64,000 nt of DNA from Candidatus Marinacidobacterium sp. (GCA_965220965.1 OZ244852.1:824621-888620); one strand, 5' to 3'. Positions 10,640 through 24,625 are shown, numbered from the stretch's first letter. The notes: generated by a model from the letters alone, not told the origin. Program-made: numbers and translations.

Positions 10640-12082
10640 TTGAACCGCCCCGGAAACCGTGAGACGATCCCCGAAGTGACTATCCAGGAATCCCGATCCG
10701 TCCTTCGCGTCTCCGGCTCCCCCCTTGTCGCCGGACTTGTCGCCGCCGTCCTGGTGGCGGGGACCGCCGCGGCGGAGCGCCCCTCGCGCGACCAGGTGTG
10801 GTCCGAGGTTCGGAGCGACGGAAAGTCGCTGGTCATCGGCCGTTTCGTCGGAAAGTTCGAGAGTCCCGACTTTCGTTCCCGCCGTCTCGTCGTCCGGAAC
10901 CGCGACACCGGGAAGGAGGAGCGGCTCGCGATCGACGACGGCCTGGGCCTGATCCACGAGCTCGTCGAGCCCGGGGTCTACGAAGTCCGCGCCATCGAGG
11001 CGGTCTACTTCCCGAACGTCCGCCCGATGAACCCCCGGCGGTTCCGCCCGATCCGGCAGCGCTTCGCGGTCGCTCCCCGCGCGCACGAGACGGCGGAGAC
11101 GCTCATCGCCGTGCCCCAGGACCGGCCGGTCTACATCGGCACCATCCGGGCGGCGGCGGAGCGCCAGGGCATGGTCTACGAAGGGCAGAAGCTCCGCGTT
11201 CTGGACGACTTCGACGCCGCCATGGACCGGCTCTCGGTGACCTTCCCGGCGCTCGCCGCCAGCCTTTCGGAGGCGTCGGTGACCCCGCAGCGGCACTTCA
11301 TGCTCCGGCCCACCCGCCCGGACCCGCCGCTCGAGATGGTCGTCGGCATGGAGGACCCGATTCGGCAGGCCCGCCAGTACATCGAGGACGGCAAGTTCGC
11401 CCAGGCGATCAACTGGCTCTCGACCTTCATGCCGGTCTCCGACCGCCATCGCAACGAGGTCCGGCTGCTCGTCGGGGAAGCGCACCTCGGGAGCCGCGAC
11501 CTCGACCTCGCCATCGAGGAACTGGGCGAGGTGCTCCTGCAGAACCCCGCGAATCTCCGCGCCCTCCGGCTACTGGCGCGGGCCCATTCGCTGAACGGGA
11601 ACCTGCTGGACGCCGAGAGCCTCTACCGCGCGCTGCTCGACCTGCGGCCGCGCGACGCGGAGGCGCACCTCCAGTTGGGATTCCTGCATGCCCTCCGGGA
11701 GGAGGCCGCAGAGTCCGAGGCCTCGTTCGAGATCGCCTTCGAGACCGACTTCGACTACCTGATGCATGACCTCGCGCCCTTCCTGGTCGCGGTCCGGAGC
11801 AACGCCGCGGCGGAGGCCGAGTACGTCCCCGCGACTCTCAGGAGCACCGAGGTTCCGCTGCGGGGCGGTGGGGGGTCGCGCCGCTCGTCCGAGCGGGACG
11901 GCGTGATGCTGCTCATCGATCACACCGGGGACGTCAAGTCGGCCCACTTCAACCCGGAGAGCTCGAGCCGCCTCCACCAGACGATGATGTCGCTGCTCCG
12001 CGGACGGTTCCGCCCGGCCACGCTGAACGGGATCGCCATCCCGTCCATCATGGCGTTCGGGAGCTTCACCGCGGACCCCTGA
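10640..12082 (+). CDS. Secreted TPR-repeat protein with a TonB-C-like C-terminal domain
   Basis: Signal-peptide-like N-terminus. The central region has TPR-like helices (…NLRALRLLARAHSLNGNLLDAESLYRALLDLRPRDAEAHLQLGFLHAL…). The C-terminus (…GVMLLIDHTGDVKSAHFNPESSS…LRGRFRPATLNGIAIPSIMAFGSF) resembles the TonB C-terminal fold. Confidence 0.45.
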   Translation: MNRPGNRETIPEVTIQESRSVLRVSGSPLVAGLVAAVLVAGTAAAERPSRDQVWSEVRSDGKSLVIGRFVGKFESPDFRSRRLVVRNRDTGKEERLAIDDGLGLIHELVEPGVYEVRAIEAVYFPNVRPMNPRRFRPIRQRFAVAPRAHETAETLIAVPQDRPVYIGTIRAAAERQGMVYEGQKLRVLDDFDAAMDRLSVTFPALAASLSEASVTPQRHFMLRPTRPDPPLEMVVGMEDPIRQARQYIEDGKFAQAINWLSTFMPVSDRHRNEVRLLVGEAHLGSRDLDLAIEELGEVLLQNPANLRALRLLARAHSLNGNLLDAESLYRALLDLRPRDAEAHLQLGFLHALREEAAESEASFEIAFETDFDYLMHDLAPFLVAVRSNAAAEAEYVPATLRSTEVPLRGGGGSRRSSERDGVMLLIDHTGDVKSAHFNPESSSRLHQTMMSLLRGRFRPATLNGIAIPSIMAFGSFTADP

Positions 12083-12116
12083 GGATCGCCGCCCTCTCGA
12101 GGCGCAACGCGAAGAA

Positions 12117-12147
12117 CGGTCCCGTCCCGCGCGATGCGGGACGGGAC
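12117..12147. terminator. Bidirectional intrinsic terminator-like hairpin between convergent genes
   Basis: Perfect 12-bp inverted repeat gtcccgtcccgc…gcgggacgggac with a 5-nt loop, lying between the stop of the + gene (12082) and the stop of the − gene (12149). Confidence 0.55.
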
Positions 12148-12148
12148 G

Positions 12149-12907
12149 TCAGCGGCTGTCCAGCAGCCGGTCCACCTCGGCCTCCAGCACCGAGAACGGC
12201 TGGTCGGTGCTGGGCGCCGGATGGAGGAGGCCTTCGCGGTCGATCAGGAAGTTCGCCGGGTAGCGGGCCGTCTGGGTGAAGATGTCGGGCACGAAGCCGT
12301 CCTCCAGCGCCTCGGGGAGGAGGAGGGGGTAGTCCACCTGGACCATGTCGCGGCGGAACGTCTGCTGGACCTCCTCGTCCTCGGTGGAGATGCCGAACAC
12401 CTGGAAGCCCTGATCGGCGCGTTCCTTCGCCAGCCGGTCCAGTTCGGGCATTTCGGCGCGGCAGGGTGGACACCAGGTGGCCCAGATGTTCACCAGTACG
12501 ACCGAGCCGGCGTGGTCGGAGAGCCGGTGACGGTTTCCGTCGAGGTCGGCGGCGAGGAAGTCCGGGGCCGGGACCCCGGCGAGCGCCAGGTTCGCGGCCT
12601 GCCGGGCGCGGCGAACCGCGCCGCCGATCGGGGCCGCGACCAGACCGAGCGAGAGCAGCGCCACCGTGGCGCCGACCCAGCCGGCGCCGGTCATGGCGCC
12701 CGCCCGTCGGGCCTGGAGCGCGCGGCGCAGCGCGAAGACCGGGGGCAGGATCATGACCAGGGCGACGGCGGCGAGCCGGAAGAGGTAGTCCGAGTCCGGG
12801 TCCGGGCTGAGGCGGGTCAGAACCAGGTAGGTTCCGGCGCCGAGGACGGCGGCGACAAAGGGCGAGGCCAGGCCCGACCAGAGCGGAGAGGGCGCGGTTT
12901 TCGTCAT
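12149..12907 (-). CDS. TlpA-like thiol:disulfide oxidoreductase (membrane-anchored redoxin)
   Basis: Two N-terminal transmembrane helices followed by a thioredoxin fold with an active-site WCPPC motif (VLVNIWATWCPPCRAEMPEL). Start ATG at 12907 overlaps the upstream stop (ATGA). Confidence 0.8.
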   Translation of the reverse strand: MTKTAPSPLWSGLASPFVAAVLGAGTYLVLTRLSPDPDSDYLFRLAAVALVMILPPVFALRRALQARRAGAMTGAGWVGATVALLSLGLVAAPIGGAVRRARQAANLALAGVPAPDFLAADLDGNRHRLSDHAGSVVLVNIWATWCPPCRAEMPELDRLAKERADQGFQVFGISTEDEEVQQTFRRDMVQVDYPLLLPEALEDGFVPDIFTQTARYPANFLIDREGLLHPAPSTDQPFSVLEAEVDRLLDSR

Positions 12908-13917
12908 GGGGAAGCCTCCACGAGGTCCGCGGCCGCGTAGCGGGCGCGGATGCCAGGGACGAGATAGCGGGAGAAGAGGGTCTCCCGGTCGTGCTCCGGG
13001 GCCCAGCCGAAGTCGCGGCGGGCGGCGCTGTCGTCGACCGCCCCGGGCCAGCTCGCGACGATCCGGTCCCGCGCCTCGTCGACCGAGGAGCGCACCACGA
13101 CTCCGGGAAAGTCGCGGCGGACGCGGGCGATGACCTCGTCCGCCGAGAAACTGGGGCCGCCGATGTTGTACGCGTGGCGCCGAAGATCGGCCTTGTCGGC
13201 GTCGGCGAGCTGGAGAAAGCCCCGCACCGCGTCCGGCATGGAGCAGAACGGCAGCCGGGCGTCCGCCCGCACGAAGAAGGCGTAGGGCTCCCCCCGGGCC
13301 GCGGCGTGGAGCAGTTCGGGCGCCCAGTCGCTGGTTCCGCCCTGCGGCGCGGTGTCGCAGGAGATCAGCCCCGGGAACCGGATGGCCCGGAAGTCGAGGC
13401 CGGCGCACTCGCGCTCCATCGCCGCCCCGAGCCGCTCGATGTAGAGCTTCTGGTCGCCGTAGAGCGTGATGGGATCCAGATGGTCTCCCTCGCCGATCGC
13501 GCCCGCCTCCGCCTTGGCGGCCCGGGACCCGAATCCGTAGACCGCGATGGAACTCGGGAACAGGAAGCGGACCGGCGCAGCCGGGGTCGCGTCGCGCGCG
13601 GCCATCTCGAGCAGATGGGCCGCCCCCTCCACGTTGACCCGGTGGGCCAGCGCCGGGACGGTCTCGGCGCGGGTGGAGAGGATGGCCGCGAGGTGAAACA
13701 CCGTCCGCGCCCGGTAGCGCGCGCCGAACGCCGCCCAGAGCTCCCGGTCGAGGATGTCCCCCTGGAAGTGTTCCGTCGGGAGGGCCGCGGCTGCGGCCGG
13801 CGGGGGACGCAGGTCCACCGTCACGACGGCCTCGCCCCGGGCGCGCAGCGAGGTGACCAGCGCGGTTCCGATTTCCCCGGCGGAGCCGGTGACGAGCGTG
13901 ACCGCGCGGCGGCTCAT
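12904..13917 (-). CDS. NAD-dependent epimerase/dehydratase-family enzyme, L-threonine 3-dehydrogenase-like (extended SDR)
   Basis: N-terminal Rossmann motif VTLVTGSAGEIGTALV; …VFHLAAILS…; YGDQK catalytic YxxxK. Overall similarity to the short-chain TDH/UDP-glucose-4-epimerase-like family. Confidence 0.7.
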   Translation of the reverse strand: MSRRAVTLVTGSAGEIGTALVTSLRARGEAVVTVDLRPPPAAAAALPTEHFQGDILDRELWAAFGARYRARTVFHLAAILSTRAETVPALAHRVNVEGAAHLLEMAARDATPAAPVRFLFPSSIAVYGFGSRAAKAEAGAIGEGDHLDPITLYGDQKLYIERLGAAMERECAGLDFRAIRFPGLISCDTAPQGGTSDWAPELLHAAARGEPYAFFVRADARLPFCSMPDAVRGFLQLADADKADLRRHAYNIGGPSFSADEVIARVRRDFPGVVVRSSVDEARDRIVASWPGAVDDSAARRDFGWAPEHDRETLFSRYLVPGIRARYAAADLVEASP

Positions 13918-14654
13918 GCGCCGCTCTCCTCCGACCCGGGTCGCCCCGCTTCGAGCGTCCGGCGCAGGAACGCTCCGAGAGCCCGGATTTCCTCCTCGCA
14001 GACCTCGTGACCCATGGCGTAGGAGCGGAAGTCCACGTTCCAGCCGTTCGCGCGGAGGGCGTCGCGGGTGGTGGTTCCACCTGCGAAGGGGACGATCTCG
14101 TCGTGGAGTCCGTGCGCCAGGAAAACCGGCGCCGCCACCGGTCCGGCGGGCGCCGCTTCTTCGGGGAACGGGAGGTAGGACGAGAGCGCGGCGAGTCCGG
14201 CGATGGCGGGCGGGGACGCGGCGTCGGGACCACGGGCGGCGGCCGCCGCGAGCGCCACCGCGCCCCCCTGCGAGAAGCCGACGAGCGCGACCCGCTCCGG
14301 GGGGATCCCACGCTCGGCCTCGGCCGCGAGAAGAGCCCGGACCCCGGAAACGACCGCTTCCAGGTGTTCCCGGTTGAGGCGCCGCGAGTCGGCGATCGAC
14401 TCGATGTCATACCAGGCGCGCATCCACATCCCGCCGTTCAGGGTGACCGGCCGGACCGGCGCCTCGGGGAACACGAAGCGGACTCCCAGTGCGGCGGGGA
14501 GGCGCAGCGCGGGCAGCACCGGGACGAAGTCCTGGCCATCGGCCCCGAGTCCATGGAGCCAGAACACGGTCGAGCGGTGGGCGCCGACCGGAGGGATCTC
14601 GACGAGATTCCACGCCGGGAGCGCGGCCGGAGCGGAAGCGGCCGTGGAGGTCAC
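13914..14654 (-). CDS. Phospholipase/carboxylesterase-family alpha/beta hydrolase
   Basis: FWLHGLGADGQDF; nucleophile elbow GFSQGGAVAL; His in …YAMGHEV. GTG start overlapping the upstream stop. Confidence 0.7.
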   Translation of the reverse strand: MTSTAASAPAALPAWNLVEIPPVGAHRSTVFWLHGLGADGQDFVPVLPALRLPAALGVRFVFPEAPVRPVTLNGGMWMRAWYDIESIADSRRLNREHLEAVVSGVRALLAAEAERGIPPERVALVGFSQGGAVALAAAAARGPDAASPPAIAGLAALSSYLPFPEEAAPAGPVAAPVFLAHGLHDEIVPFAGGTTTRDALRANGWNVDFRSYAMGHEVCEEEIRALGAFLRRTLEAGRPGSEESGA

Positions 14655-17074
14655 GCTGACTCGCTCAGGATCCGGTCGAGGACTTCGAGGTAGTGGTCGG
14701 CGTCATCGGCGCTGAAGGGCAGAGGGGGCTTGATCTTGATGACGTTCGCGTCCGCGCCGTCCGTGCTGTTCAGGATGTGCGCTCGCCGCATGCGATTCAC
14801 CAGGCGGCTGGCCGTCCCGGTCGCGGGGTCGCGCGACCCGGGGTCGCTCACCAGTTCGAAACCGAGGAAGAGGCCGCGCCCCCGGACCTGCCCGATGACA
14901 GGGTACCGCTTCGCGAGTTCTTCGAGACCGGCGATGAGCCGTCCCCCGACGCGCTCGGCGTGCTCCGCCAGCCCTTCGTCCTCGAGAACGTCGAGCAACG
15001 CGAGCCCGGCGGCGCAGGAAACCGGATTGCCGCCGAAGGTGTTGAAGTACTCCATCCCGGTCTCGAACGAGCGCGCCAGCTCGCGGGTCGTCACGACCGC
15101 CCCCAGCGGGTGTCCGTTTCCGGCGGGCTTGCCCAGGGTCACGATGTCGGGAACGAGCGGCGGGGCGGCGTCCGGCGACGCCTGGACTTCGGCGAAGGCC
15201 CACATCGCGGGACCCACCCGCCCGAACCCGGTCTGGACTTCGTCGGCCACGATGACGCCGCCGGCCTCGCGGGCCGCCTGGTAGACGGCCCGCAGATACC
15301 CCGGAGGAGGAACGACCTGGCCTCCGCACCCCGGGATCGCCTCGGTGATCACCGTCGCCGCTCCCGCCTCGCTGATGCGGCGCTGCGCGTCCTCGATGAG
15401 CGAGCCGGGGAATCCGGGGTCTTCCTCGCGGAAGCGTCCGCGGAAGCCGTCGGGCAGCGGGAGCCGGTGGAGCCAGGGCGGTCCGGGCCGGCCGCCGGGG
15501 CCGTCCAGCTTGTACGGGCTGATCTCGATGAGCGAGGTGAGGTTGCCGTGGTAGGCGCCGTCGAAGACGACGGTGTCCGGGCGCCCGATCCGGCTCCTGG
15601 CGATCCGGAGCGCGAGGTCGTTCGCCTCGCTCCCGGAGTTCGTGAGGAACACGACCTCGAGCGGGTCCGGAAACGTCGCGAGCAGGCGTTCGGCGTAGTC
15701 GGTGAGCTGGCGATAGAGGTAGCGGGTGTTCGTGTTGAGCCGGGCGGCCTGGCGGGCGATCGCCTCCGCCACCCGGGGGTGGGCGTGGCCGACATGGCAG
15801 ACGTTGTTCACCATGTCGAGGTAGGCGCGCCCATCCGCGTCGTAGAGCCGCGCCCCCTCGCCCCCCACCATGTGGATGGGCTCGTCGTAGGACACGCTGA
15901 GCGCCCCACTGAACCGCGCGCGCCGGCTGGCCAGGAGCGCCGCAGCGTCGGGCGCCGGCTCGCCCGGCTGCCGAGAGGACGTTCCGGTTCCGTTGCTGGT
16001 GTGGCCCGCCGCATCGAGGAAGCGCGCGGCGGCGTCCGCTACCGTCGATCCATCGAGTTCCGCCAGCACCCGCCAGACTCCGCTCTCGCTGACCTGCAGG
16101 TCGCTCTCGCCCTCCGCGCCGGAGCCGGGACGCCGGCGGATCGCGGCGATGCCGGCGCTGACCAGCGCCCGCAAGGCGAGCGCCGTCCGGAACGCGGCCG
16201 CCTCCTCCCGCGTCAGCGGCCGCTCCCCGGCGAACCCCGCCAGAACCGAGGCGGCGGCGGTGAGGGGGCTCGCCGCGGGACCGGCGAGATAGAGCGCCGC
16301 GGTGGCCGCCTCCACGATCCCCGGCGCCTCGAGCGCGTCCCCGAAGTCGAGCGCGGCCAGGTCTTCCGGACCGGCGTTGACCGGCGAGCCGGCGGCCAGC
16401 AGCAGGTTGTCGTCGTTCAGGTCGTTGTGGAGCGCAGCCGGGGGAAGCTCGAGGAGACGGCCCAGATCGGAGCGGATCGACTCCGCCACCCGGCGGTAGA
16501 GGCCGGCGCGCTCCGGGGAGGCGATGGCGGTCGCGCCGAGGGCGATGACCCGCCCGGCGTGGCGGGGGGCCCATGGAAGGTCCTGCGCTTCGAGCCCGGG
16601 ATGTCGGAAGCCGGCCAGCGCGCGCTGGAGCCGCCCGGCGAACCGGCCGGCCGCCTCCAGCAGGGCGTCGGTGGGCCGAGGGAAGACCGACAGCGCGACT
16701 CCGTCCTGATGGTGGAGAAGCCGGACGGCGTGGACCCGTCCGGCGAACTCCCGGTGGACGAGGCCCTCGCCGCCGGGCGCCGGCGCGAGGCGGGGCAGGC
16801 GGAGGCGGGGATCCCGCCGCCGGGCGTGCGCCGGCATCGCCGTCTGGAGATCCAGCCGGTCGGCAATTTCCGCCGCGCCCGAGATCTTGAGTACGAACCG
16901 CTCCCCGGACGCGGAGGTCAGGAGGAAGTTCCGGTCGCGCTCGCCGGAGAGAGGGGTCGCCTCCGCTTCGATGCCCCAGACCTCGCGGACGACCGCGGCC
17001 GCTCCGGCGGGATCGAGCGACGGACGTCCGGAGACCGGGTCGAGGAGCGACAGGGGGTCGGCCGGCGACGTCAT
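14651..17074 (-). CDS. Fusion protein with an N-terminal APH/hydroxylysine-kinase-like phosphotransferase domain and a C-terminal class-III aminotransferase-fold phospho-lyase domain (ETNPPL/PHYKPL-like)
   Basis: Kinase motifs: Brenner HNDLNDDNLLL and DFGDA. Aminotransferase-fold motifs: DEVQTGFGRVG and the PLP-lysine region TLGKPAGNGHPLGAV, which is characteristic of the phospho-lyase subfamily rather than true transaminases. The true start is the ATG at 17074 (MTSPADPL…); the ORF track's 1031-aa version reads through the upstream gene in another frame. Confidence 0.75.
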   Translation of the reverse strand: MTSPADPLSLLDPVSGRPSLDPAGAAAVVREVWGIEAEATPLSGERDRNFLLTSASGERFVLKISGAAEIADRLDLQTAMPAHARRRDPRLRLPRLAPAPGGEGLVHREFAGRVHAVRLLHHQDGVALSVFPRPTDALLEAAGRFAGRLQRALAGFRHPGLEAQDLPWAPRHAGRVIALGATAIASPERAGLYRRVAESIRSDLGRLLELPPAALHNDLNDDNLLLAAGSPVNAGPEDLAALDFGDALEAPGIVEAATAALYLAGPAASPLTAAASVLAGFAGERPLTREEAAAFRTALALRALVSAGIAAIRRRPGSGAEGESDLQVSESGVWRVLAELDGSTVADAAARFLDAAGHTSNGTGTSSRQPGEPAPDAAALLASRRARFSGALSVSYDEPIHMVGGEGARLYDADGRAYLDMVNNVCHVGHAHPRVAEAIARQAARLNTNTRYLYRQLTDYAERLLATFPDPLEVVFLTNSGSEANDLALRIARSRIGRPDTVVFDGAYHGNLTSLIEISPYKLDGPGGRPGPPWLHRLPLPDGFRGRFREEDPGFPGSLIEDAQRRISEAGAATVITEAIPGCGGQVVPPPGYLRAVYQAAREAGGVIVADEVQTGFGRVGPAMWAFAEVQASPDAAPPLVPDIVTLGKPAGNGHPLGAVVTTRELARSFETGMEYFNTFGGNPVSCAAGLALLDVLEDEGLAEHAERVGGRLIAGLEELAKRYPVIGQVRGRGLFLGFELVSDPGSRDPATGTASRLVNRMRRAHILNSTDGADANVIKIKPPLPFSADDADHYLEVLDRILSESA

Positions 17075-18450
17075 CAGCGGAGTACGCGCCGCAGCACCGA
17101 GAGCTTGCCGCCGTACGGCGGGTAGCGGAGCGGGACGTCCAGCCACCTCGAGGCGGAGAACCAGGCGCGCTGCTGCGAGAGCCGGTCGAAGCCGTGAACC
17201 CCGTGGTAAGCGCCGAAGCCGCTCCGGCCCACGCCCCCGAAGGGAAGCGCGGGGTTGGCGCAGTGGACGACCGCGTCGTTCACCAGCACCGCCCCCGAGC
17301 GCACCGCCGCCGCCGCGGCCCGGACGACCCGCCGGCGGCGGGAGAAGACGTGGAGGACCAGCGGATCGGGATGCCGGGCGAGTTCGGCGAGCGCGTCGTC
17401 CAGCTTCCGGTACGGCAGCAGCGGCAGGATGGGTCCGAAGAGCTCCTCGCTGGCGGCCGGATGCCCCTCCGGCCAGGGGCCCGTCACGGTGGGGGCGAAG
17501 CGGAGCGTTTCCCGGTCCCGCTCTCCCCCGCGGAGCAGCGGCAGGCCGTCCAGCATGCCGGTCAGCCGGTCGAAGTGGGCGCGGTGGACGATCCGGCCGA
17601 AGTCGGGACTGCTGGCGGGGTCCTCCCCGTAGAACCCGTCGAGTGCGCGGAACAGTTCGCTCCGGAAGCGGTCGTATTGGCTCGCCGGGACGAGGACGAA
17701 GTCGGGCGCTACGCAGGTCTGCCCCGCGTTCAGGAATTTCCCCCACGCCAACCGGCGGGCGGCCAGGCGGATATTGGCCTTCTCATCGATCAGGGCCGGA
17801 CATTTTCCTCCCAATTCGAGCGTAACCGGGGTCAAAGTCCGTCCGGCGGCCTCGGCGACGCGCGCTCCCGCGGCGCGGCTCCCGGTGAAGACGATGTGGT
17901 CGAAGGAACCGGAGGAGGCGAGCGCGGCCCCGGTCCGGGCGTCCCCGGAAACGACCTCGATGTGCCCCTCGGCCAGGACTCCCGGAACCCGCGCCGCGAG
18001 CAGCCCCGCGGTCGCCGGGGCGTGTTCCGAGGGCTTCAGCACCACCGTGTTGCCCGCCGCGATCGCCGCGACCGCCGGCCCAAGGCTCAACTGCAGGGGG
18101 TAGTTCCAGGGGGCGATCACCAGGACGACCCCCAGGGGCTCGGAGGTGATCCGGCTGCGCGCCGGCATCGTGGCCAGCGCGGTGGAGACCCGCTGCGGGC
18201 GCATCCAGCGGCGCAGGTTTCGGCGGGCCTGGCGGGCCTCCTGGACGACGAGACCGGTCTGCGCCGCCCACGCCTCGAACGGCGGACACCCGAGATCCTC
18301 CGCCAGCGCCCCCTCCCACGCCGCGCGGTCCTCCACCAGGAGGCGCTCGAGCGCCCGGAGCGCGCCGCGACGGAACGCGATCTCCCGCGGAGCGCCCGAA
18401 GACGCGAGACTCCGGGCCCGCTCGACGGCTCGCGTCAGCCCCTCGTCCAC
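17074..18450 (-). CDS. Aldehyde dehydrogenase, ALDH3-like family
   Basis: Catalytic Cys region GQTCVAPDF; LELGGKCPALI; NAD-binding FTGS…G; about 458 aa. Its stop overlaps the downstream start (ATGA). Confidence 0.8.
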   Translation of the reverse strand: MDEGLTRAVERARSLASSGAPREIAFRRGALRALERLLVEDRAAWEGALAEDLGCPPFEAWAAQTGLVVQEARQARRNLRRWMRPQRVSTALATMPARSRITSEPLGVVLVIAPWNYPLQLSLGPAVAAIAAGNTVVLKPSEHAPATAGLLAARVPGVLAEGHIEVVSGDARTGAALASSGSFDHIVFTGSRAAGARVAEAAGRTLTPVTLELGGKCPALIDEKANIRLAARRLAWGKFLNAGQTCVAPDFVLVPASQYDRFRSELFRALDGFYGEDPASSPDFGRIVHRAHFDRLTGMLDGLPLLRGGERDRETLRFAPTVTGPWPEGHPAASEELFGPILPLLPYRKLDDALAELARHPDPLVLHVFSRRRRVVRAAAAAVRSGAVLVNDAVVHCANPALPFGGVGRSGFGAYHGVHGFDRLSQQRAWFSASRWLDVPLRYPPYGGKLSVLRRVLR

Positions 18451-18564
18451 CTCGGCCGCGCAGTATAGGGGGCGCGGGTAGACTCGCGGGCCGCCGTGTC
18501 GTATCCGATTCCTGACTCAGCTCTCCCGTCGCCACGGGCCGCGCTTCCTGGCCGCGCCGAGGCG

Positions 18565-19164
18565 ATGCCGGTTCCCGCGCGCCACTTCGTGCTGGACGCC
18601 CCGCTCACTCCGCCCTGGCCCGAGGGCGTTGCGGAGACCTTCTTCGGCATGGGGTGCTTCTGGGGCGCCGAGCGGCTGTTCTGGAAGATTCCCGGGGTCT
18701 ACACCACGGCCGTCGGCTTCGCGGGCGGCGTCACTCCGAACCCCTCCTACCGCGAGGTGTGCACCGGCGCCACCGGGCACGCCGAGATCGTGCGCGTCGT
18801 CTTTCGACCGGAGCAGGTCTCGTTCGTCGAGCTGTTGCGCACCTTCTGGGAGCAGCACGACCCGACGCAGGGGATGCGGCAGGGGAACGACATCGGGACG
18901 CAGTACCGCTCCGCCATCTATGCCGTGGGCGGGGAGCAGCTCCGGGAGGCGCGCGCCGCGCAGGGCGTCTACGCCGAGCGGCTCGGCGCCGCCGGGTTCG
19001 GCGCGATCACGACCGAGATCCGCGACGCGCCGGACTTCTTCTACGCCGAGGAATACCACCAGCAGTACCTCGCGAAGAACCCGGCCGGATACTGCGGGAT
19101 CGGGGGAACCGGGGTGTCCTGCCCGGCGCCTCCCCCGAACGGCGCGGGCGCCAACGGGGCGTGA
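18565..19164 (+). CDS. msrA: Peptide-methionine (S)-S-oxide reductase MsrA
   Basis: Catalytic motif [13 protein letters not shown]; …[10 protein letters not shown]…; …YHQQYL. An alternative upstream start exists at 18496. Confidence 0.85.
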
Positions 19165-19593: not shown

Positions 19594-22500
19594 CTACAGG
19601 ACGCGGCGGAGGAGCGTCTCCGCCTCGGCGGGCGTGATGCCGCGCCGGGCGGCGTAGTCCTCGAGCTGGTCCCTCCCGATCCTGCCGACCGAGAAGTAGC
19701 GGGCCTCGGGGCTCGCGAAGTAGAGCCCGGCGACCGACGCGGTCGGGGTGATCGCGAAGGACTCGGTGAGACGGACGCCGATCGCCGCCTCGGCGTCGAG
19801 GGCGTCGAAGATCTCGCGCGCGATCCCGGGGTCCGGGGTCCCCGGGTAGCCGGGAGCGGGCCGGATCCCGCGGTAGCGCTCGCGGAGGAGGTCCTCGGGT
19901 TCCAGGTTTTCCTCTTCGCCGTACCCCAGCTCGCGGCGCGCCGTCTCGTGGAGCTTCTCGGCGAGCGCCTCGGCGAGCCGGTCGGCGAGCGACCGCAGGA
20001 GGAGCGCGTCGTAGTCGTCGCTGGCGCGTTCGGCGGCGGCCACCGCCGTCTCGAGGCCGAGGCCGGCGGTGACGGCGAACATGCCGACCACATCCGCCCC
20101 TCCGGCGGCCGGGGCGCCGGCGCCGCCGTCCCCGAGGAAGTCGGCGAGCGCCAGGCGGGGCCCCTTCCGGTCTTCCTGCTGGCGAAGCGTCGGGATCCGG
20201 AACCGGGGCGGGCCGGACGCCGAGCGCGGTTCCCACACCAGGATGTCGTCGCCCTCCCGCGCGGCCGGGAAGAACCCGTAGACCGCGGCGGCGCGCAGTT
20301 CGTCGCCGGTGGCGAGCGCCGCGGCCCGGGCGCGGGCGGCGGCGAGCAGCTCGCGGGCCGCCGATCCGGAGTCCGGGTGATCCAGCAACGCCGGGAAGGT
20401 TCCCCGGAACTGCCAGGCGTGGAAGAACGGGGTCCAGTCGATGTAGGGGAGCAGCTCCCGGATCGCGATCTCGCGCAGGACGCGCACCCCCAGGAACCGG
20501 GGCCGGACATCCGTGGCCCGGGGGAAGCGGGGCGCGCGCCGGCGGGCCTCGGCGAGCGACAGCAGCGGCGGCCGCCCCTCCTCGCCGCGCTCGCGCAGCC
20601 GGCTCTGGGACCGCCGCAGTTCGGCGACATAGTCCTCCCGCTCGTCGCCCAGCAGGGACCGCGCGACCCCGGACGCCAGCGAGGCGTCCCGGACGTGGAC
20701 CACCGGGCCGGAGCGGGTGGGGGCGAGGCGCAGCGCGGTGTGGCGCGCCGAGGTCGTGGCGCCGCCGATGAGGAGCGGCCGGTGGTCGCCGCGGCGCTCC
20801 ATCTCGACGGCGAACCGCTCCATCTCGGCGAGCGACGGGGTGATGAGTCCGGAGAGCCCGACGAGCGCCGCGCCCCCGGCGTTGGCGCGCTCGAGGATCC
20901 GGTCGGCGGGGACCATGACCCCGAGGTCGTCGACCTCGTAGCCGTTGCACGCCAGCACGATCCCCACGATGCTCTTCCCGATGTCGTGAACATCCCCCTT
21001 CACGGTGGCGAGGACGATCCGGTCGCGGCGATCCGCGGCCTGCTCGTCGTTCCGCATGAAGGGTTCGAGCCGGGCGACCGCCCGCTTCATGACGCGGGCG
21101 CTCTTGACCACCTGGGGCAGGAACATCCGTCCATCGCCGAACCGCTCGCCCACGACCCGCATCCCGTCCATCAGCGGTCCCTCGATCACCCCGAGGGCCG
21201 ACCCGATCCCGGCGAGCGCCTCGTCGGTGTCGGCCTCGATGAAGTCGGTGAAGCCCTGAACGACGGCGTGGGCGAGCCGCTCTTCGACCGGCAGCGCGCG
21301 CCAGGCGTCGTCCGCGCCGCGGCTGGAAGCCTGGGCGCGGGCCTCCGAGGCCACCTCGAGAAGCCGCTCCGACGCGTCCGGTCGGCGCGCCAGGACCACA
21401 TCCTCCACCCGCTCGCGCAGGTCTTCGGGGATGTCGTCGTAGGCCGGGAGGCGGCCGGCGTTCACGATCCCCATATCGAGGCCGGCGGCGATGGCGTGGT
21501 GGAGGAACACCGCGTTCATCGCCTGTCGCACGCCCTCGTTGCCGCGGAAGGCGAACGAGAGATTCGAGACCCCCCCGGAGAGCAGCGATCCGGGACAGGC
21601 CTCGCGGATCCGGGGAAGCGCGTTCAGGAACTCGAGCGCATAGCGGTCGTGCTCCGCGATCCCGGTGGCGACCGCGAGGACGTTCGGGTCGAAGGCGATG
21701 TCCCCCGGCGGAACCCCGATGCCGGTGAGGAGGCGGTAGGCGCGGGCGCAGATCGCGGTCTTGCGGTCGGCGTCGACCGCCTGGCCCTCCTCGTCGAACG
21801 CCATCACGATGAGCGCGGCGCCGTAGCGGCGCACCCGCCGCGCGGAGTCGAGGAAAGCCTCCTCCCCGTCCTTGAGCGAGAGCGAGTTCACCACGCCCTT
21901 GCCGGGAAGCTGGCGGAGCCCGGCCTCGATCACGTCGAGGTCGGAGCTGTCCACGACCACCGGCAGCCGGGCGATGTCCGGCTCCATCGCCACCAGCCGC
22001 AGGAACCGGCTCATGCAGCCGGCCGAGTCGAGGAGCGCCTCGTCCATGTTGACGTCGATGAGGTTCGCGCCCCCGGCCACCTGATCCTGCGCCACGCCGA
22101 TGGCGGCCTCGAAGCGCTCGCGCCGGATGAGCCGCGCGAACCGGCGCGAGCCGGTGACGTTCGTGCGTTCGCCGACGATGAGGAAGGCCCGCTCCGGCCG
22201 CACCAGTGGCTCGTTTCCGGCGAGGCGCAGTCCGGACCGGGCGGCGGGGACCTCGCGCGGCGCCGCGCCCCGGAGCGCCTTCCGGACGGCGTCGATGTGC
22301 TCCGGCGTCGTGCCGCAGCAGCCCCCGGTGAAGTTGAGCAGGCCCTGGCGCGCGAGGTCCCGGAGCGCCGACGCGGTGGCGACGGGGATCTCGTCGTAGC
22401 CGCCGAGTTCGTTCGGCAGTCCGGCGTTCGGGACGGCGCCCACCGGGACCGGGGCGTAGCGCGCCATGCGCTCCAGGATCGGACCCATCGCCTCCGCGCC

Positions 22501-23250
22501 GAGCGAGCAGTTCACCCCGGCCGCCGTGACGCCGGCGTGCTCGACGGACACCCAGAACGCCTCGGCGTCCTGCCCCGTCAGGTTCCGGCCTCCCTGATCC
22601 ACCGCGGTGAACGAGACCAGGAGCCCGGGGTCACCGGGGGCCTCGGACATCGCCTCGGCGCAGGCGTCGAGCGCCGCCTTGGCGTTCAGCGTGTCGAAGC
22701 AGGTCTCGACCAGCAGCAGGTCCGCCCCGCCGGCGAGGAGCCCTCGCGCCTGTTCCAGGTAGGCGGCGCGGAGTTCCTCCCAGCCGATGGCCCGGTACGC
22801 CGGATCGGCCACATCGGGCGACACGCTGAGCGTCCGGTTCGTCGGGCCCATCGAGCCCAGCACGAACACCGGCCGGTCGGGCTGGAACGCCTCGATGGCG
22901 CGACGGGCGACGCGGGCGCCGGCGCGGTTGATCTCGAACGCGAAGTCCTCGAGGCCGTAGTCGGTGAGGGAGACCGCGGTCCCGTTGAACGTGTTCGTGG
23001 TGAGCGCATCGGCGCCCGCCGCGAGGTAGTCCAGGTGGACGCGCTCCACGAGCTCCGGACCGGTGAGGCAGAGGACGTCGTGAAGCCCCGCGAGCGGTTT
23101 CGGGTGTTCCCGGAGCCGGTCGCCGCGGAAGGCGGACTCCTCCAGCCGCAGCGCCTGAAGCATCGTCCCGATCGCCCCGTCGAACACGAGGATGCGCTCG
23201 CCGAGCGCCTCCCGGAAGGCGGCCCGGCCGCCGCGCGCCGCGCCGCTCAT
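19594..23250 (-). CDS. metH: Cobalamin-dependent methionine synthase MetH
   Basis: Start MSGAARGG…[13 protein letters not shown] (homocysteine-binding module). Pterin-binding, cobalamin-binding and AdoMet-activation domains follow across about 1218 aa. The ORF-track start at 23388 is an over-extension. Confidence 0.9.
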
Positions 23251-23386
23251 GCTGGCGCGCAGTCTAGGGCGGCCCCAGTCGGTCTCCGGGCCGCCCGGTA
23301 CCATCCCCGAGCCTCGCCGGATGGCCGGGCGGGCCGCTCCGGAGCCCGTCCCGCCCGGGCGGGCGTTGACAACAGGCTCCCCGCTC

Positions 23387-24625
23387 ATGCCCCTTCATCT
23401 CTGGGTCGCCGTCGCCATCGTGGGCGGCATCGCGACCGGCGTCGCGCTCGGCGAGACGGCGGCGCTCCTGCAGCCGATCGCGGACCTGTTCGTCCAGCTC
23501 CTGCGGATGCTCATCGCGCCGTTGATCTTCATCACGCTCTCGCTGGCGATCATCGGGATCCGCGGGCGCACCGCCGGGAGCATCGGTCTGCGGGTCTTCC
23601 TCTACAACCTCGCGACCCTCGGCGCGGCGCTCGTCATCGGGATCGGTTTCGCGGTCTGGATCGGGCCCGGCGTCGGCGTCGACCTGTCGGCGCTCGGAGG
23701 CGTACCGGATGACCCCGGAACCGGGGCGGCGCCCACCGGCCGATCCTTCGGCGACATCCTCGTCGGCATCGTGCCTTCGAGCATCGGTCGCGCCTTCGTG
23801 GAAGGCGATGTGCTCCAGGTCCTGTTCCTGTCGATCGTGTTCGGCTTCGCGGTGAACGCGTTGGGCGCCGAGCGGACAAAGCCGCTGGTGGCTGTCCTGC
23901 GCGCCGTGAACGACGTCCTCTACCGGGTCGTCGGGTGGGTCGTGCGGCTCGCGCCGCTGGGCGTCTTTGCGATCCTCGCCGCAGTCGTTGGCCAGTCGGG
24001 CCTCGGAGTGCTGGGCGCGCTCGGCTGGTACATGGGGGTCTGCCTCATCGCCGCGACCGTGCAGGTGGTGGGCGTTCACGGGGGCGCGGTGCGGCTCCTG
24101 GCCGGGCAACCGATCCGGAACATGCTGCGGGCGCTGCGCGAGCCGCTCCCGGTCGCGTTCGCCTCGGTCTCCACCGCCGCGGCCCTCCCGGTGTCCATGG
24201 CCTCGGTCCCGGAGGCGACCGGGATCTCCCGCCGGGTCGCGGGGTTCGCGCTCCCGTTCGGCGCGGCGGTGGGCCGCGACTCGAGCGGGATCTACCAGGT
24301 CGTCTCGGTCGTCACGATCGCGCAGCTCGTCGGGGAGCCGCTCGCCGGCGTCCAGTTCGCGGTGCTCTGGGTCACCGCGATCCTCAGCTCCTGGGCGGTG
24401 TCGGCGGTTCCCGGCGCCAGCTTCGTGAATCTCACGATCCTGCTCGGCGCGATGGGCCTACCGCTCCACCTCTCGGTCCTCGTCCTCGCGGTGGAGCGCC
24501 CGCTCGACCACCTGCGCACCTCGGGGAACCTCATCGGTCAGCTCTCGAACGCGGTCTTCACCGGGGCCACGTCCGGGGAGATCGGCCCTCCGGGCCGGAG
24601 CAGGACCGCCGCTCCGGTGACCTGA
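23387..24625 (+). CDS. Dicarboxylate/amino acid:cation symporter (DAACS; GltP/DctA-like)
   Basis: Multi-transmembrane protein with typical DAACS features (…[14 protein letters not shown]…; …[18 protein letters not shown]…). ATG at 23387 is preceded by TTGACA at 23366. Divergent from metH. Confidence 0.7.

What the first reader, a model, noticed from the sequence alone, without database searches (positions are those of the whole stretch)
14651..18450. Translationally coupled catabolic module: kinase–phospho-lyase fusion plus aldehyde dehydrogenase
The 807-aa protein fuses an APH/hydroxylysine-kinase-type phosphotransferase (HNDLNDDNLL, DFGDA) to a class-III aminotransferase-fold domain. The PLP-lysine context (LGKPAGNGHPLG) matches the phospho-lyase subfamily (ETNPPL/PHYKPL), not true transaminases.

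These enzymes phosphorylate an amino-alcohol, such as 5-hydroxylysine or ethanolamine, and then eliminate phosphate and ammonia to give an aldehyde. The immediately upstream, stop/start-overlapping gene is an ALDH3-type aldehyde dehydrogenase that could oxidise that aldehyde.

Further downstream, also stop/start-coupled, are an esterase, a TDH-like SDR and a TlpA redoxin. The substrate of this bacterial fused pathway is unknown.
Basis: partly seen in the sequence, partly recalled or inferred. Interest (0 to 1): 0.55.

Follow-up and report, generated by a model that had tools for sequence, protein, structure and literature searches.

The report
Fused amino-alcohol kinase/phospho-lyase operon with aldehyde dehydrogenase
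A soil-type bacterium (probably Acidobacteriota) carries an operon whose central 807-aa protein joins a small-molecule kinase to a vitamin-B6 phospho-lyase next to an aldehyde dehydrogenase; this is a sound but fairly ordinary example of a known way of breaking down amino-alcohols such as hydroxylysine, and its exact substrate is still unknown.

Summary

- **Genes.** The minus strand carries five genes chained by 1-4 nt stop/start overlaps: a class-3 ALDH, an 807-aa APH-kinase + class-III-fold PLP fusion, an APT1-like esterase, a threonine-dehydrogenase-like SDR and a membrane TlpA redoxin.
- **Lyase domain.** It groups with the characterised phospho-lyases (human ETNPPL 406 bits, Arthrobacter phospholyase 312 bits). 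The best racemase or transaminase scores 196 bits. It shares their GKPxGNGHP, NNVxHVGH and EYFNTxGGNP motifs.
- **Kinase domain.** It has intact catalytic motifs. Its nearest solved folds are aminopropanol kinase and homoserine kinase II.
- **Family.** The fusion is large and already catalogued (NCBIfam PRK06148/06149), with at least 597 genomic loci in many phyla. Gene-fusion evidence of this kind is cited for the 2012 identification of vertebrate hydroxylysine kinase.
- **What looks new.** A conserved cassette, ALDH3 – fusion – esterase – TDH-like SDR, occurs in 8 Acidobacteriota-type loci. The window's protein has secondarily lost the Peptidase_M23 insert.
- **Substrate.** In other phyla the fusion sits beside alpha-glucosidase and beta-galactosidase genes, saccharopine dehydrogenases or prolyl peptidases. 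This points to collagen-type hydroxylysine. For the window's clade the substrate stays open between hydroxylysine, aminopropanol and others.

Verdict: a new member of a known kind, of moderate-to-low interest.

The parts
17074..18450 (-). Class-3 (ALDH3-type) NAD(P)+ aldehyde dehydrogenase, 458 aa, GTG start. Catalytic residues are visible in the sequence: WNYP Asn, ELGGK Glu, GQTCVAPD Cys.
   Evidence: Pfam Aldedh E 2.2e-80. Best PDB matches are 1ad3/3sza ALDH3A1 at 353-355 bits and 4qgk FALDH at 330 bits. Best NCBIfam match is MdlD-like at 293 bits, below its cutoff of 550. Translation.
16046..17074 (-). Fusion protein residues 1-343: APH-fold small-molecule kinase domain.
   Evidence: Pfam APH E 1.2e-10. 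The domain profile hits 2ppq homoserine kinase II (E 9e-10) and 6ef6 (E 2.6e-9). AlphaFold model has pLDDT 90.4. Foldseek: 6ef6 aminopropanol kinase TM 0.71/0.74, 2ppq TM 0.65/0.72.
16406..16429 (-). Kinase catalytic loop H216-N-D-L-N-D-D-N223 (Brenner-type HxDxxxxN).
   Evidence: H216, N217, D218, N220 and N223 are invariant in 17 homologues.
16337..16348 (-). Kinase Mg-binding motif D243-F-G-D246.
   Evidence: Invariant in alignments A1 and A2.
15890..16045 (-). Inter-domain linker, residues about 344-395. This is the site where relatives carry a roughly 220-aa Peptidase_M23 insert.
   Evidence: Alignment A1, about columns 395-650. Precomputed Pfam PF01551 in most homologues.
14654..15889 (-). 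Fusion residues 396-807: class-III aminotransferase-fold PLP domain of the phospho-lyase clade (ETNPPL/PHYKPL/A1RDF1 type). Stop codon at 14651-14653.
   Evidence: Pfam Aminotran_3 E 1.3e-74. PDB: 6tor 406 bits, 5g4i 312 bits, next best 196 bits. BLASTP identity 46.7% to human ETNPPL and 41.8% to 5g4i; shared motifs. Tree.
15128..15130 (-). Codon of the PLP-binding lysine K649, in GKPAGNGHP.
   Evidence: Invariant G648-K649-P650...G652-N-G-H-P656. The same motif occurs in ETNPPL and 5g4i, but the racemase has GKGLGGGLP.
13914..14654 (-). Abhydrolase_2 carboxylesterase / APT1-like serine hydrolase, 246 aa (GFSQGG nucleophile motif). Its GTG start overlaps the fusion's stop (GTGA).
   Evidence: Pfam Abhydrolase_2 E 2e-38. 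PDB: 3cn7 and 1auo at 146-147 bits, APT1 at 100 bits. Junction.
12904..13917 (-). Extended SDR of the GalE-like L-threonine 3-dehydrogenase clade, 337 aa (GSAGEIG, YGDQK). ATGA overlap with the esterase.
   Evidence: Pfam Epimerase E 2.7e-30. The 18 best PDB matches are all TDH-type at 123-183 bits; the next is 55 bits. Junction.
12149..12907 (-). Membrane-anchored TlpA/ResA-like thiol-disulfide oxidoreductase (WCPPC), 252 aa. ATGA overlap with the SDR. Probably an operon passenger.
   Evidence: Pfam AhpC-TSA and Redoxin; NCBIfam TlpA and ResA, both below cutoff. Present only in the high-GC subset of cassette loci and absent in L044, L049 and L087. Junction.

Best explanation
This is a cytosolic catabolic operon for a compound with a terminal amine next to a hydroxyl (R-CH(OH)-CH2-NH2).

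- **Step 1 (inferred from fold and motifs).** The N-terminal APH-type kinase domain of the 807-aa protein phosphorylates the hydroxyl, using ATP or GTP.
- **Step 2 (inferred from homology to characterised phospho-lyases).** The C-terminal PLP domain forms an aldimine with the terminal amine, eliminates phosphate, and releases ammonia and the aldehyde R-CH2-CHO. Fusing the two domains keeps the phospho-intermediate local.
- **Step 3 (inferred from conserved, overlapping gene order).** The class-3 aldehyde dehydrogenase encoded immediately upstream oxidises that aldehyde to the acid.
- **Accessory genes.** The co-conserved APT1-like esterase and TDH-like SDR probably prepare or interconvert the substrate. 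The esterase could release it from an ester or peptide-like conjugate. The SDR could oxidise or reduce a vicinal amino-alcohol/amino-ketone.
- **TlpA** is a passenger.

The most likely substrate is 5-hydroxy-L-lysine, giving 2-aminoadipate semialdehyde and then 2-aminoadipate. My estimate is about 0.4. This rests on what the same fusion is linked to in other phyla. 1-Aminopropan-2-ol (about 0.2-0.25), ethanolamine (about 0.1) and an unidentified amino-alcohol (about 0.25) remain open.
For: - **Domain architecture.** Two domains with intact catalytic residues.
- **Lyase clade membership.** PDB scores are 406 and 312 bits against 196 bits or less for other class-III enzymes. The lyase-clade motifs are shared. 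The domain falls inside the lyase clade in the tree.
- **Kinase fold.** The model is confident (pLDDT 90) and is nearest to aminopropanol kinase 6ef6 and homoserine kinase II 2ppq.
- **ALDH.** It is catalytically intact and of class 3.
- **Cassette conservation.** ALDH – fusion – Abhydrolase_2 – TDH-like SDR is kept in the same order, usually with 1-4 nt overlaps, in the window, L001, L018, L044, L049, L085, L086 and L087. Across these loci lyase-domain identity is 58-81% and genome GC ranges from 60 to 73%.
- **Hydroxylysine: glycosidase context.** In Bacteroidota, Phycisphaera and Colwelliaceae the fusion lies directly after a GH2 beta-galactosidase gene. In L043 a GH63/YgjK-like alpha-glucosidase and SusC/SusD are also present. 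In L022 the two glycosidases are fused into one 1659-aa ORF. These enzymes match the collagen glycan Glc-alpha1,2-Gal-beta1-O-Hyl (PMC11442529).
- **Hydroxylysine: lysine catabolism context.** In Colwellia, Shewanella and Pseudoalteromonas the fusion sits next to a saccharopine dehydrogenase pair and an NhaC-type transporter.
- **Hydroxylysine: peptide context.** In Aminicenantes and Bryobacterales it sits next to a DPP-IV/S9 peptidase. Cassette relatives carry an M23 peptidase domain plus AbgT or oligopeptide transporters.
- **Literature.** The vertebrate hydroxylysine kinase / phospho-lyase paper is cited as the example of gene fusion revealing function (PMC12138971).
Against: - No enzyme of this bacterial fusion family appears to have been assayed; none turned up in four literature searches.
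- Known 2-aminoadipate-semialdehyde dehydrogenases are, to my knowledge, ALDH7-type. Class-3 ALDHs prefer medium-chain or aromatic aldehydes. This fits hydroxylysine, and acetaldehyde from ethanolamine, poorly.
- The esterase and the TDH-like SDR have no obvious role in hydroxylysine breakdown.
- The window's operon has no glycosidase, peptidase or transporter, and the M23 domain is deleted.
- The contexts that point to hydroxylysine come from fusions only 48-54% identical to the window's lyase domain, about as distant as human ETNPPL at 46.7%.
- No residue signature separates cassette-linked lyases from the others, so specificity cannot be read from the sequence.
Confidence: 0.7

Rival explanations
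1. Threonine / aminoacetone / aminopropanol route, a shell-less analogue of the mycobacterial RMM (Aut) pathway. The TDH-like SDR makes or interconverts aminoacetone and 1-aminopropan-2-ol. The kinase domain phosphorylates aminopropanol. The lyase gives propionaldehyde, and the ALDH gives propionate.
For: - The operon holds the same four enzyme classes as RMM/Aut loci: an SDR, an APH phosphotransferase, a class-III PLP enzyme and an aldehyde dehydrogenase. RMM1 loci even include hydrolases (PMC4207490; PMC6620236).
- The best structural match of the kinase model by TM-score is 6ef6, the 'microcompartment-associated aminopropanol kinase' (TM 0.71/0.74), which the domain profile also hits at E 2.6e-9.
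- The SDR lies in the threonine 3-dehydrogenase clade. Its product, 2-amino-3-oxobutanoate, decarboxylates spontaneously to aminoacetone (established biochemistry).
- A neutral short aldehyde suits a class-3 ALDH better than an amino-acid semialdehyde does.
Against: - The RMM dehydrogenase is a classical SDR and its ALDH is CoA-acylating. Here the SDR is the extended GalE-like type and the ALDH is a non-acylating class 3.
- There are no shell genes.
- Homoserine kinase II matches the kinase as well as 6ef6 does.
- Tri-domain relatives with the same cassette carry an M23 peptidase domain and AbgT or oligopeptide transporters, which suggests a peptide-derived substrate.
- The esterase is unexplained.
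Confidence: 0.22
2. The C-terminal domain is a genuine aminotransferase, as databases label it ('aminotransferase class III-fold PLP-dependent enzyme'). On this view the kinase domain acts on something else or is regulatory.
For: - Source names for homologues say aminotransferase, or GABA-aminotransferase-like / RdoA kinase.
- The NCBIfam list contains many transaminase models at 160-250 bits.
- The fold is shared with transaminases.
Against: - These transaminase models score three times lower than PRK06148 (763 bits), and all are below their cutoffs.
- The solved phospho-lyases outscore every transaminase by more than 100 bits.
- Motifs specific to the lyases are conserved.
- The obligate fusion to a kinase in at least 597 loci makes sense only if the phospho-ester is the lyase's substrate.
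Confidence: 0.04
3. The neighbours are operon passengers. Only the fusion acts on the amino-alcohol. The ALDH, esterase and SDR serve unrelated housekeeping functions and are merely co-transcribed.
For: - Most fusion loci in other phyla have no ALDH, esterase or SDR within 10 kb.
- TlpA clearly comes and goes.
- The esterase and SDR have no assigned step.
Against: - The four genes keep the same order and tight spacing in 8 loci.
- These loci fall in two separate lyase subclades in the tree, and their flanking genes differ completely: MsrA/MetH, EEP/DNA polymerase II, or glycosyltransferases.
- A lyase that makes a reactive aldehyde next to an ALDH is a recurring catabolic pattern.
Confidence: 0.12

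Closest known systems
Vertebrate hydroxylysine kinase (HYKK/AGPHD1) plus 5-phosphohydroxylysine phospho-lyase (PHYKPL/AGXT2L2) and ethanolamine-phosphate phospho-lyase (ETNPPL/AGXT2L1); Veiga-da-Cunha et al. 2012, J Biol Chem 287:7246
   Same: - The same two chemistries: an APH-family kinase followed by a class-III-fold PLP enzyme that eliminates phosphate and ammonia to give an aldehyde.
- The window's lyase domain is 46.7% identical to human ETNPPL (6tor) and has the same active-site motifs.
- Human ETNPPL nests among the bacterial fusion lyase domains in the tree.
   Different: - In vertebrates the kinase and the lyase are separate proteins; here they are one polypeptide.
- Here a class-3 ALDH, an esterase and a TDH-like SDR are co-encoded.
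- The substrate is untested.
- Orthology of the kinase domain to HYKK could not be tested: no HYKK sequence was available and the AFDB library was not usable.
NCBIfam PRK06148 / PRK06149 tri-domain proteins (APH – Peptidase_M23 – Aminotran_3, about 1000 aa), named only 'hypothetical protein' and 'aminotransferase'
   Same: - Best family match: PRK06148 at 763 bits and PRK06149 at 596 bits.
- The closest relatives of the window's protein are such tri-domain proteins, with 62-64% overall identity in the alignment and 66-76% in the BLASTP best local alignment (about 51-56% of the query).
- They carry the same ALDH – esterase – SDR cassette.
   Different: - The window's protein lacks the roughly 220-aa M23 insert and therefore scores below both curated cutoffs (1128 and 973).
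- In its nearest tri-domain relatives the M23 zinc-ligand motifs are already lost.
- The two-domain form here is therefore a secondary deletion, separate from the two-domain fusions of other phyla.
RMM/Aut aminoacetone – 1-amino-2-propanol utilisation microcompartment of Mycobacterium and Rhodococcus (aminopropanol dehydrogenase, aminopropanol kinase 6EF6, class-III PLP enzyme, aldehyde dehydrogenase)
   Same: - The same set of enzyme classes, and presumably the same kinase, then lyase, then ALDH logic.
- The kinase model superposes best on 6ef6.
   Different: - There are no BMC shell genes here.
- The kinase and lyase are fused.
- The SDR is the GalE-like TDH type rather than a classical SDR.
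- The ALDH is a non-acylating class 3 rather than the CoA-acylating type.
Arthrobacter aurescens A1RDF1 phospholyase (PDB 5G4I/5G4J), a stand-alone bacterial class-III 'transaminase homologue' with phospho-lyase activity
   Same: 41.8% identity, 312 bits and the same motifs.
   Different: It is a stand-alone protein with no kinase domain. It branches outside the fused clade in the tree.

Membership tests
Class-III-fold PLP phospho-lyases (ETNPPL / PHYKPL / A1RDF1 clade) | Closer in sequence to characterised phospho-lyases than to any class-III transaminase, racemase or decarboxylase | tested here: met
   6tor 405.8 bits and 5g4i 311.6 bits, against 196 bits or less for racemases, GabT, DGD, OAT and ArgD. 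In the NJ tree rooted on racemase 6gio the window falls inside the lyase clade.
Class-III-fold PLP phospho-lyases (ETNPPL / PHYKPL / A1RDF1 clade) | PLP-lysine context GKPxGNGHP and companion motifs NNVxHVGH, NTNTRYL, EYFNTxGGNP, NVxKIKPP | tested here: met
   All are present in the window, in ETNPPL and, with minor changes, in 5g4i. The racemase 6gio differs at each. They are invariant in 17 fusion homologues.
Class-III-fold PLP phospho-lyases (ETNPPL / PHYKPL / A1RDF1 clade) | Catalyses 1,2-elimination of phosphate and ammonia with negligible transamination | not testable with these tools
   Needs an enzyme assay.
APH-fold small-molecule kinases (COG2334 type: hydroxylysine kinase, homoserine kinase II, aminopropanol kinase) | Catalytic loop HxDxxxxN, DFG-type Mg site and ATP-binding Lys in beta3 | tested here: met
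   H216-N-D-x-N-x-x-N223, D243-F-G-D246 and K63 (VLK) are invariant. Pfam APH 42 bits against a cutoff of 23.2.
APH-fold small-molecule kinases (COG2334 type: hydroxylysine kinase, homoserine kinase II, aminopropanol kinase) | Bilobal APH/eukaryotic-like kinase fold | tested here: met
   Model pLDDT 90.4, pTM 0.90. Foldseek: 2ppq E 1e-11, 6ef6 TM 0.71/0.74.
APH-fold small-molecule kinases (COG2334 type: hydroxylysine kinase, homoserine kinase II, aminopropanol kinase) | Orthology to vertebrate HYKK (reciprocal best match) | not tested
   No HYKK sequence or structure could be retrieved. The afdb50 library was unavailable and the primary paper is not held.
NCBIfam PRK06148 / PRK06149 (APH – M23 – Aminotran_3) | Whole-protein score above the curated cutoff, which requires all three domains | tested here: not met
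   763 bits against 1128, and 596 bits against 973. There is no Peptidase_M23 hit. The alignment shows the insert is absent.
Class-3 aldehyde dehydrogenases (ALDH3) | Best similarity to ALDH3 members, with catalytic Cys, Glu and Asn present | tested here: met
   1ad3 355 bits, 3sza 352 bits, 4qgk 330 bits; ALDH1/2 about 135-140 bits. GQTCVAPD, ELGGK and WNYP are present in the translation.
ALDH7-type 2-aminoadipate-semialdehyde dehydrogenase | Closest similarity to ALDH7A1, Pcd or AmaB | tested here: not met
   None of the 60 best PDB matches is named as an ALDH7 / aminoadipate-semialdehyde enzyme; the top matches are class 3. None of the best 25 NCBIfam matches shown is an aminoadipate-semialdehyde model.
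GalE-like (extended SDR) L-threonine 3-dehydrogenase | Sequence clusters with solved TDHs; GxxGxxG and YxxxK present | tested here: met
   The top 18 PDB matches are TDH-type at 123-183 bits, and the next family scores 55 bits. GSAGEIG and YGDQK are in the translation.
GalE-like (extended SDR) L-threonine 3-dehydrogenase | Genomic pairing with 2-amino-3-ketobutyrate CoA ligase (kbl), typical of TDH operons (my knowledge), and activity on L-threonine | tested here: not met
   No class I/II aminotransferase-type gene lies in the operon or in the roughly 21 kb around it (gene list of L084). Activity is not testable here.
RMM/Aut aminopropanol microcompartment locus | BMC shell protein genes and a CoA-acylating aldehyde dehydrogenase | tested here: not met
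   No BMC-domain genes among the called genes around the operon. The ALDH is class 3, not Eut/Cut-like (against the description).
Translationally coupled operon | Stop/start codon overlaps between successive genes | tested here: met
   TGATG, GTGA, ATGA and ATGA. No terminator-like site lies inside 11900-18700. Actual coupling cannot be tested here.

The most novel reading that the evidence does not exclude
The Acidobacteriota cassette (class-3 ALDH – kinase/[M23]/phospho-lyase – APT1-like esterase – TDH-like SDR, sometimes with an EEP-family phosphoesterase and an AbgT transporter) may be a dedicated pathway for an amino-alcohol that is none of the three known substrates (hydroxylysine, ethanolamine, aminopropanol).

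One possibility is a hydrophobic or aryl 2-hydroxy-amine, or a conjugated (esterified or peptide-linked) amino-alcohol. The aldehyde from such a compound would suit a class-3 ALDH.

Another possibility is that the GalE-like SDR makes the amino-alcohol from threonine by an oxidation – decarboxylation – reduction cycle.
Probability: 0.22. Interest if true: 0.55.

Novelty: new member of a known kind. Interest (0 to 1): 0.35.

Why it matters
**Annotation.** Public databases call these proteins only 'aminotransferase class III-fold PLP-dependent enzyme' or 'hypothetical protein'. Recognising them as kinase/phospho-lyase fusions corrects the annotation of a family with at least 597 genomic loci and more than 2000 protein clusters.

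**Ecology.** The comparative context found here suggests that many environmental and host-associated bacteria can catabolise collagen-derived (glycosylated) hydroxylysine. The relevant contexts are glycosidases matching Glc-Gal-Hyl, saccharopine-pathway genes and prolyl peptidases. This nutrient route has hardly been studied in bacteria.

**An assay target.** The Acidobacteriota cassette with a class-3 ALDH, an esterase and a TDH-like SDR is a tidy four-enzyme target. It could either confirm that route or reveal a new amino-alcohol substrate. Acidobacteriota have few characterised pathways.

**Limits.** For the window itself the finding is a well-behaved member of a known enzyme logic. It is not a new mechanism.

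Tried and rejected
- **Single-sequence PDB search with the kinase domain.** phmmer found nothing at E ≤ 1. A profile of 11 homologues was needed.
- **Foldseek against AFDB.** I wanted to test similarity to HYKK models, but the library was not installed. Only the PDB could be searched.
- **Primary papers.** Veiga-da-Cunha 2012 (PMC3293546) and Mallette & Kimber 2018 (PMC6314145) are not held. What I say about them rests on citing papers and on my own knowledge.
- **Literature on assayed bacterial fusions.** Four full-text searches looked for a characterised bacterial fusion, bacterial hydroxylysine catabolism or a Glc-Gal-Hyl utilisation locus. None found anything relevant.
- **Specificity signature.** I looked for lyase-domain residues shared by all cassette-linked enzymes and rare elsewhere. 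There were none at a strict threshold. At a relaxed threshold only a few semi-specific positions appeared: L512, T672, R733 and N769. This is not enough to infer substrate.
- **Substrate from the lyase tree.** Rejected, because human ETNPPL nests inside the bacterial radiation and the cassette loci split into two subclades.
- **Promoter and terminator scan of 11900-18700.** No sites were found. The scan is uninformative at 73% GC.
- **A second class-III aminotransferase or ALDH in the window as an internal outgroup.** None was found.
- **Fusion as a frameshift artefact.** I considered this because the ENA copy of the contig splits the gene. I rejected it because the window's frame is the one conserved in homologues.


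Full report
**1. What is in the sequence**

The window is about 73% GC. On the minus strand there is an unbroken chain of five genes:

| Gene | Coordinates | Length |
|---|---|---|
| Aldehyde dehydrogenase | 18450..17074 | 458 aa |
| Fusion protein | 17074..14651 | 807 aa |
| Esterase | 14654..13914 | 246 aa |
| SDR | 13917..12904 | 337 aa |
| TlpA-like redoxin | 12907..12149 | 252 aa |

The four junctions are TGATG, GTGA, ATGA and ATGA, so every stop codon overlaps the next start codon. GGAGG-like sequences precede two of the starts. No terminator-like site lies inside the operon, although that scan has little power at this GC content.

msrA is divergent, 45 bp upstream, and metH follows it.

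Pfam confirms each assignment:
- Aldedh, E 2.2e-80.
- APH at residues 41-274 (E 1.2e-10) plus Aminotran_3 at residues 399-803 (E 1.3e-74) in one polypeptide.
- Abhydrolase_2.
- Epimerase-type SDR.
- AhpC-TSA/Redoxin.

**2. Is the fusion real?**

The public ENA copy of this same contig (L084, ctg116337_3.50x_l) is identical to the window over 21.4 kb except for four single-base homopolymer indels. These lie at window positions 18468, 17511, 16264 and 16187. In the ENA gene calls they cut the ALDH down to a 137-aa fragment. They also split the fusion into a 345-aa APH gene and a 472-aa aminotransferase gene.

The window's reading frame across residues 271-296 is the one conserved in homologues, including invariant P270, A274 and E291. 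Independent assemblies encode 804-809-aa two-domain orthologues at 69-72% identity. The continuous 807-aa ORF is therefore the correct reading.

**3. The C-terminal domain**

Against all PDB sequences the two best matches are the two solved phospho-lyases:
- Human ethanolamine-phosphate phospho-lyase, 6tor: 405.8 bits, E 3e-120.
- The Arthrobacter aurescens 'phospholyase', 5g4i: 311.6 bits.

The next match is an amino-acid amide racemase at 196 bits. GABA, acetylornithine, ornithine and putrescine aminotransferases score lower still.

BLASTP identity is 46.7% to ETNPPL, 41.8% to 5g4i and 34.8% to the racemase.

The following motifs are shared by the window, ETNPPL, 5g4i and all fused homologues, and differ in the racemase:
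- NNVxHVGH
- NTNTRYL
- GKPxGNGHP (PLP Lys649)
- EYFNTxGGNP
- NVxKIKPP

In a neighbour-joining tree of 88 lyase-type domains rooted on the racemase, the window lies inside the lyase clade, which is set off by a long stem.

**4. The N-terminal domain**

A single-sequence PDB search found nothing. A profile of 11 homologues hits Agrobacterium homoserine kinase II (2ppq, E 9e-10) and 6ef6 (E 2.6e-9).

An AlphaFold model of residues 1-343 is confident, with pLDDT 90.4 and pTM 0.90. It is a complete APH-type kinase. Foldseek places it nearest to three structures:
- 2ppq.
- Amicoumacin kinase.
- 6ef6, the 'microcompartment-associated aminopropanol kinase', which has the best TM-score at 0.71/0.74.

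The catalytic loop H216-N-D-x-N-x-x-N223, the D243-F-G-D246 motif and K63 are invariant. Residues about 344-395 form the linker.

**5. The neighbours**

- **ALDH.** It is class 3: rat ALDH3A1 355 bits, human ALDH3A1 352 bits, fatty aldehyde dehydrogenase 330 bits, against about 135-140 bits for ALDH1/2. The catalytic Cys, Glu and Asn are present.
- **Esterase.** It resembles Pseudomonas carboxylesterases PA3859 and esterase II, and human acyl-protein thioesterases.
- **SDR.** Its 18 best PDB matches are all GalE-like L-threonine 3-dehydrogenases (123-183 bits), and the next family scores 55 bits.

**6. How common is it, and what travels with it?**

The protein search returned more than 2000 homologues at E ≤ 1e-20. 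Most are about 1020-aa tri-domain proteins of the form APH – Peptidase_M23 – Aminotran_3. This is the architecture of NCBIfam PRK06148/PRK06149, which are the window's best family matches at 763 and 596 bits. Both scores fall below the cutoffs because the M23 insert is missing.

A scan of one genome per species found at least 597 loci. They come from Acidobacteriota, Planctomycetota, Chloroflexota, Gemmatimonadota, Bacteroidota, Gammaproteobacteria, Myxococcota and others.

The window's nearest full-length relatives are tri-domain proteins, at 62-64% identity in the alignment. Two-domain proteins of other phyla are only 44-49% identical. The window also clusters with tri-domain loci in the tree.

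Among the listed tri-domain proteins in which both anchor motifs could be located, the M23 zinc-ligand motifs HxxxD and HxH show a trend:
- Both are intact in 46, including every classified protein from P0061 to P0070, which are the more distant relatives.
- Both are lost in 33 and HxxxD alone is lost in 10; all classified proteins from P0004 to P0042, the close relatives, fall in these two groups.
- The whole domain is deleted in the window's lineage.

The two-domain form here is therefore a secondary loss.

The order ALDH3 – fusion – Abhydrolase_2 – TDH-like SDR is conserved in the window, L001, L018, L044, L049, L085, L086 and L087. Across these loci lyase identity is 58-81%, GC runs from 60 to 73%, and the outer flanks are unrelated. 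There are two sub-variants:
- With TlpA downstream, in the high-GC Vicinamibacteria-like loci.
- With an Exo_endo_phos-family gene upstream and an AbgT transporter downstream. One locus also has an oligopeptide ABC system.

None of the other roughly 75 loci has these neighbours within 10 kb.

**7. What the fusion is linked to elsewhere**

- **Bacteroidota.** In Chitinophaga, Pedobacter, Flavobacterium, Sphingobacteriales and Pseudoflavitalea the fusion follows a GH2 beta-galactosidase. In Chitinophaga fulva (L043) the order is SusC – SusD – GH2 beta-galactosidase – GH63/YgjK-like alpha-glucosidase – fusion.
- **Phycisphaera (L022).** The alpha-glucosidase and beta-galactosidase are fused into one 1659-aa ORF directly upstream.
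- **Colwelliaceae (L031).** A GH2 gene lies upstream and saccharopine dehydrogenases lie nearby.
- **Colwellia, Shewanella abyssi and Pseudoalteromonas.** A LYS1-like/LYS9-like saccharopine dehydrogenase pair and an NhaC-family transporter sit next to the fusion.
- **Aminicenantes and Bryobacterales.** A DPP-IV/S9 peptidase sits next to it.

The glycan on collagen hydroxylysine is Glc-alpha1,2-Gal-beta1-O-Hyl (PMC11442529). The saccharopine pathway ends at 2-aminoadipate semialdehyde, which is the product expected from 5-phosphohydroxylysine (established biochemistry, from my own knowledge). Together these contexts argue that in those phyla the fusion is a hydroxylysine kinase / 5-phosphohydroxylysine phospho-lyase.

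**8. Mechanism for the window's operon**

- Shown: domain identities, intact catalytic motifs, clade membership and conserved gene order.
- Inferred: the kinase phosphorylates the hydroxyl of an R-CH(OH)-CH2-NH2 compound. The PLP domain eliminates phosphate and ammonia to give R-CH2-CHO. The ALDH oxidises that aldehyde.

I put 0.7 on this three-step logic.

The substrate is not settled.
- **For hydroxylysine:** the family-wide contexts in section 7, and the M23 domain and peptide-type transporters in cassette relatives.
- **Against hydroxylysine:** a class-3 rather than ALDH7-type dehydrogenase, and no obvious role for the esterase or the SDR.
- **For aminopropanol:** the TDH-like SDR, and the match of enzyme classes to the RMM/Aut locus.
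- **Against aminopropanol:** the enzyme subtypes differ, and there are no shell genes.

No lyase-domain residue pattern distinguishes cassette-linked enzymes from the rest.

**9. Comparison with what is known**

- The chemistry is that of vertebrate HYKK plus PHYKPL/ETNPPL. [quoted passage not shown]
- As I recall, bacterial amino-alcohol kinase / phospho-lyase activities were described biochemically in the 1970s in Erwinia and Pseudomonas.
- The fusion family is catalogued but poorly named.
- I found no paper that assays a fused bacterial enzyme or describes the ALDH3 – esterase – TDH-like cassette. Absence from this library is weak evidence.

**10. Verdict**

- It is a new member of a known kind.
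- It adds a conserved Acidobacteriota cassette, a secondary domain loss and an open substrate question.
- Interest is 0.35.
- The side observation about Glc-Gal-Hyl utilisation loci in other phyla may be the more rewarding lead.

Noticed in passing
L043:26-12295 (Chitinophaga fulva). Similar pattern in L045, L053, L058, L059, L069 and L039. Also L022:5019-12307 (Phycisphaera) and L031:6465-12029 (Colwelliaceae).: The two-domain kinase/phospho-lyase fusion is the last gene of a SusC – SusD – GH2 beta-galactosidase – GH63/YgjK-like alpha-glucosidase locus. In Phycisphaera the two glycosidases are fused into one 1659-aa ORF directly upstream. The enzyme set matches stepwise removal of Glc-alpha1,2-Gal-beta1 from collagen hydroxylysine followed by hydroxylysine breakdown. 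It looks like an undescribed glucosyl-galactosyl-hydroxylysine utilisation locus.
   Followed up: partly
L028, L031, L040, L061 (Colwellia, Shewanella abyssi, Pseudoalteromonas), within about 6 kb of the fusion: A saccharopine dehydrogenase pair (AlaDh_PNT LYS1-like of 359 aa, and Sacchrp_dh LYS9-like of 396 aa) and an NhaC-family transporter flank the fusion. This links it to lysine catabolism via 2-aminoadipate semialdehyde.
   Followed up: partly
window 18468, 17511, 16264, 16187 (compared with L084 = ENA ERZ26695579 ctg116337_3.50x_l): The public ENA copy of this contig differs from the window only by four 1-nt homopolymer indels over 21.4 kb. In the ENA gene calls these truncate the ALDH to 137 aa and split the fusion into separate 345-aa APH and 472-aa aminotransferase genes. 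The window's frame is the one supported by homologues.
   Followed up: yes
Alignment A1, about columns 395-650, corresponding to window 15890-16045 (linker): The Peptidase_M23 insert of the tri-domain relatives shows a decay series. Both HxxxD and HxH are intact in 46 of the classified tri-domain proteins, including all classified ones from P0061 to P0070. Both are lost in 33 and HxxxD alone in 10, including all classified ones from P0004 to P0042. The domain is deleted in the window's lineage and in P0001-P0003.
   Followed up: partly
L044:7800-8582 and 14700-17749; L049:5505-6281 and 12427-16547; L087:4764-5504 and 13545-15088: A second variant of the cassette has an Exo_endo_phos (EEP) family gene just upstream of the ALDH. 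An AbgT-family transporter follows the SDR, and L049 also has an SBP_bac_5 oligopeptide ABC system. This hints that the substrate is imported as a conjugate or peptide.
   Followed up: partly
NJ tree of lyase domains: Human ETNPPL nests within the radiation of bacterial fused lyase domains, next to Planctomycetota sequences, rather than branching outside it. The stand-alone Arthrobacter phospholyase branches basally. This is a rough distance tree with no support values.
   Followed up: no
window 18496-19164 (+), 19594-23388 (-) and 12149-12907 (-): msrA is divergent to the operon, with only 45 bp between the start codons, and metH follows it. The msrA – operon – TlpA arrangement recurs in L001 and L018. 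The cytoplasmic methionine-sulfoxide reductase and the membrane TlpA redoxin may therefore form their own redox pair flanking the catabolic genes.
   Followed up: no
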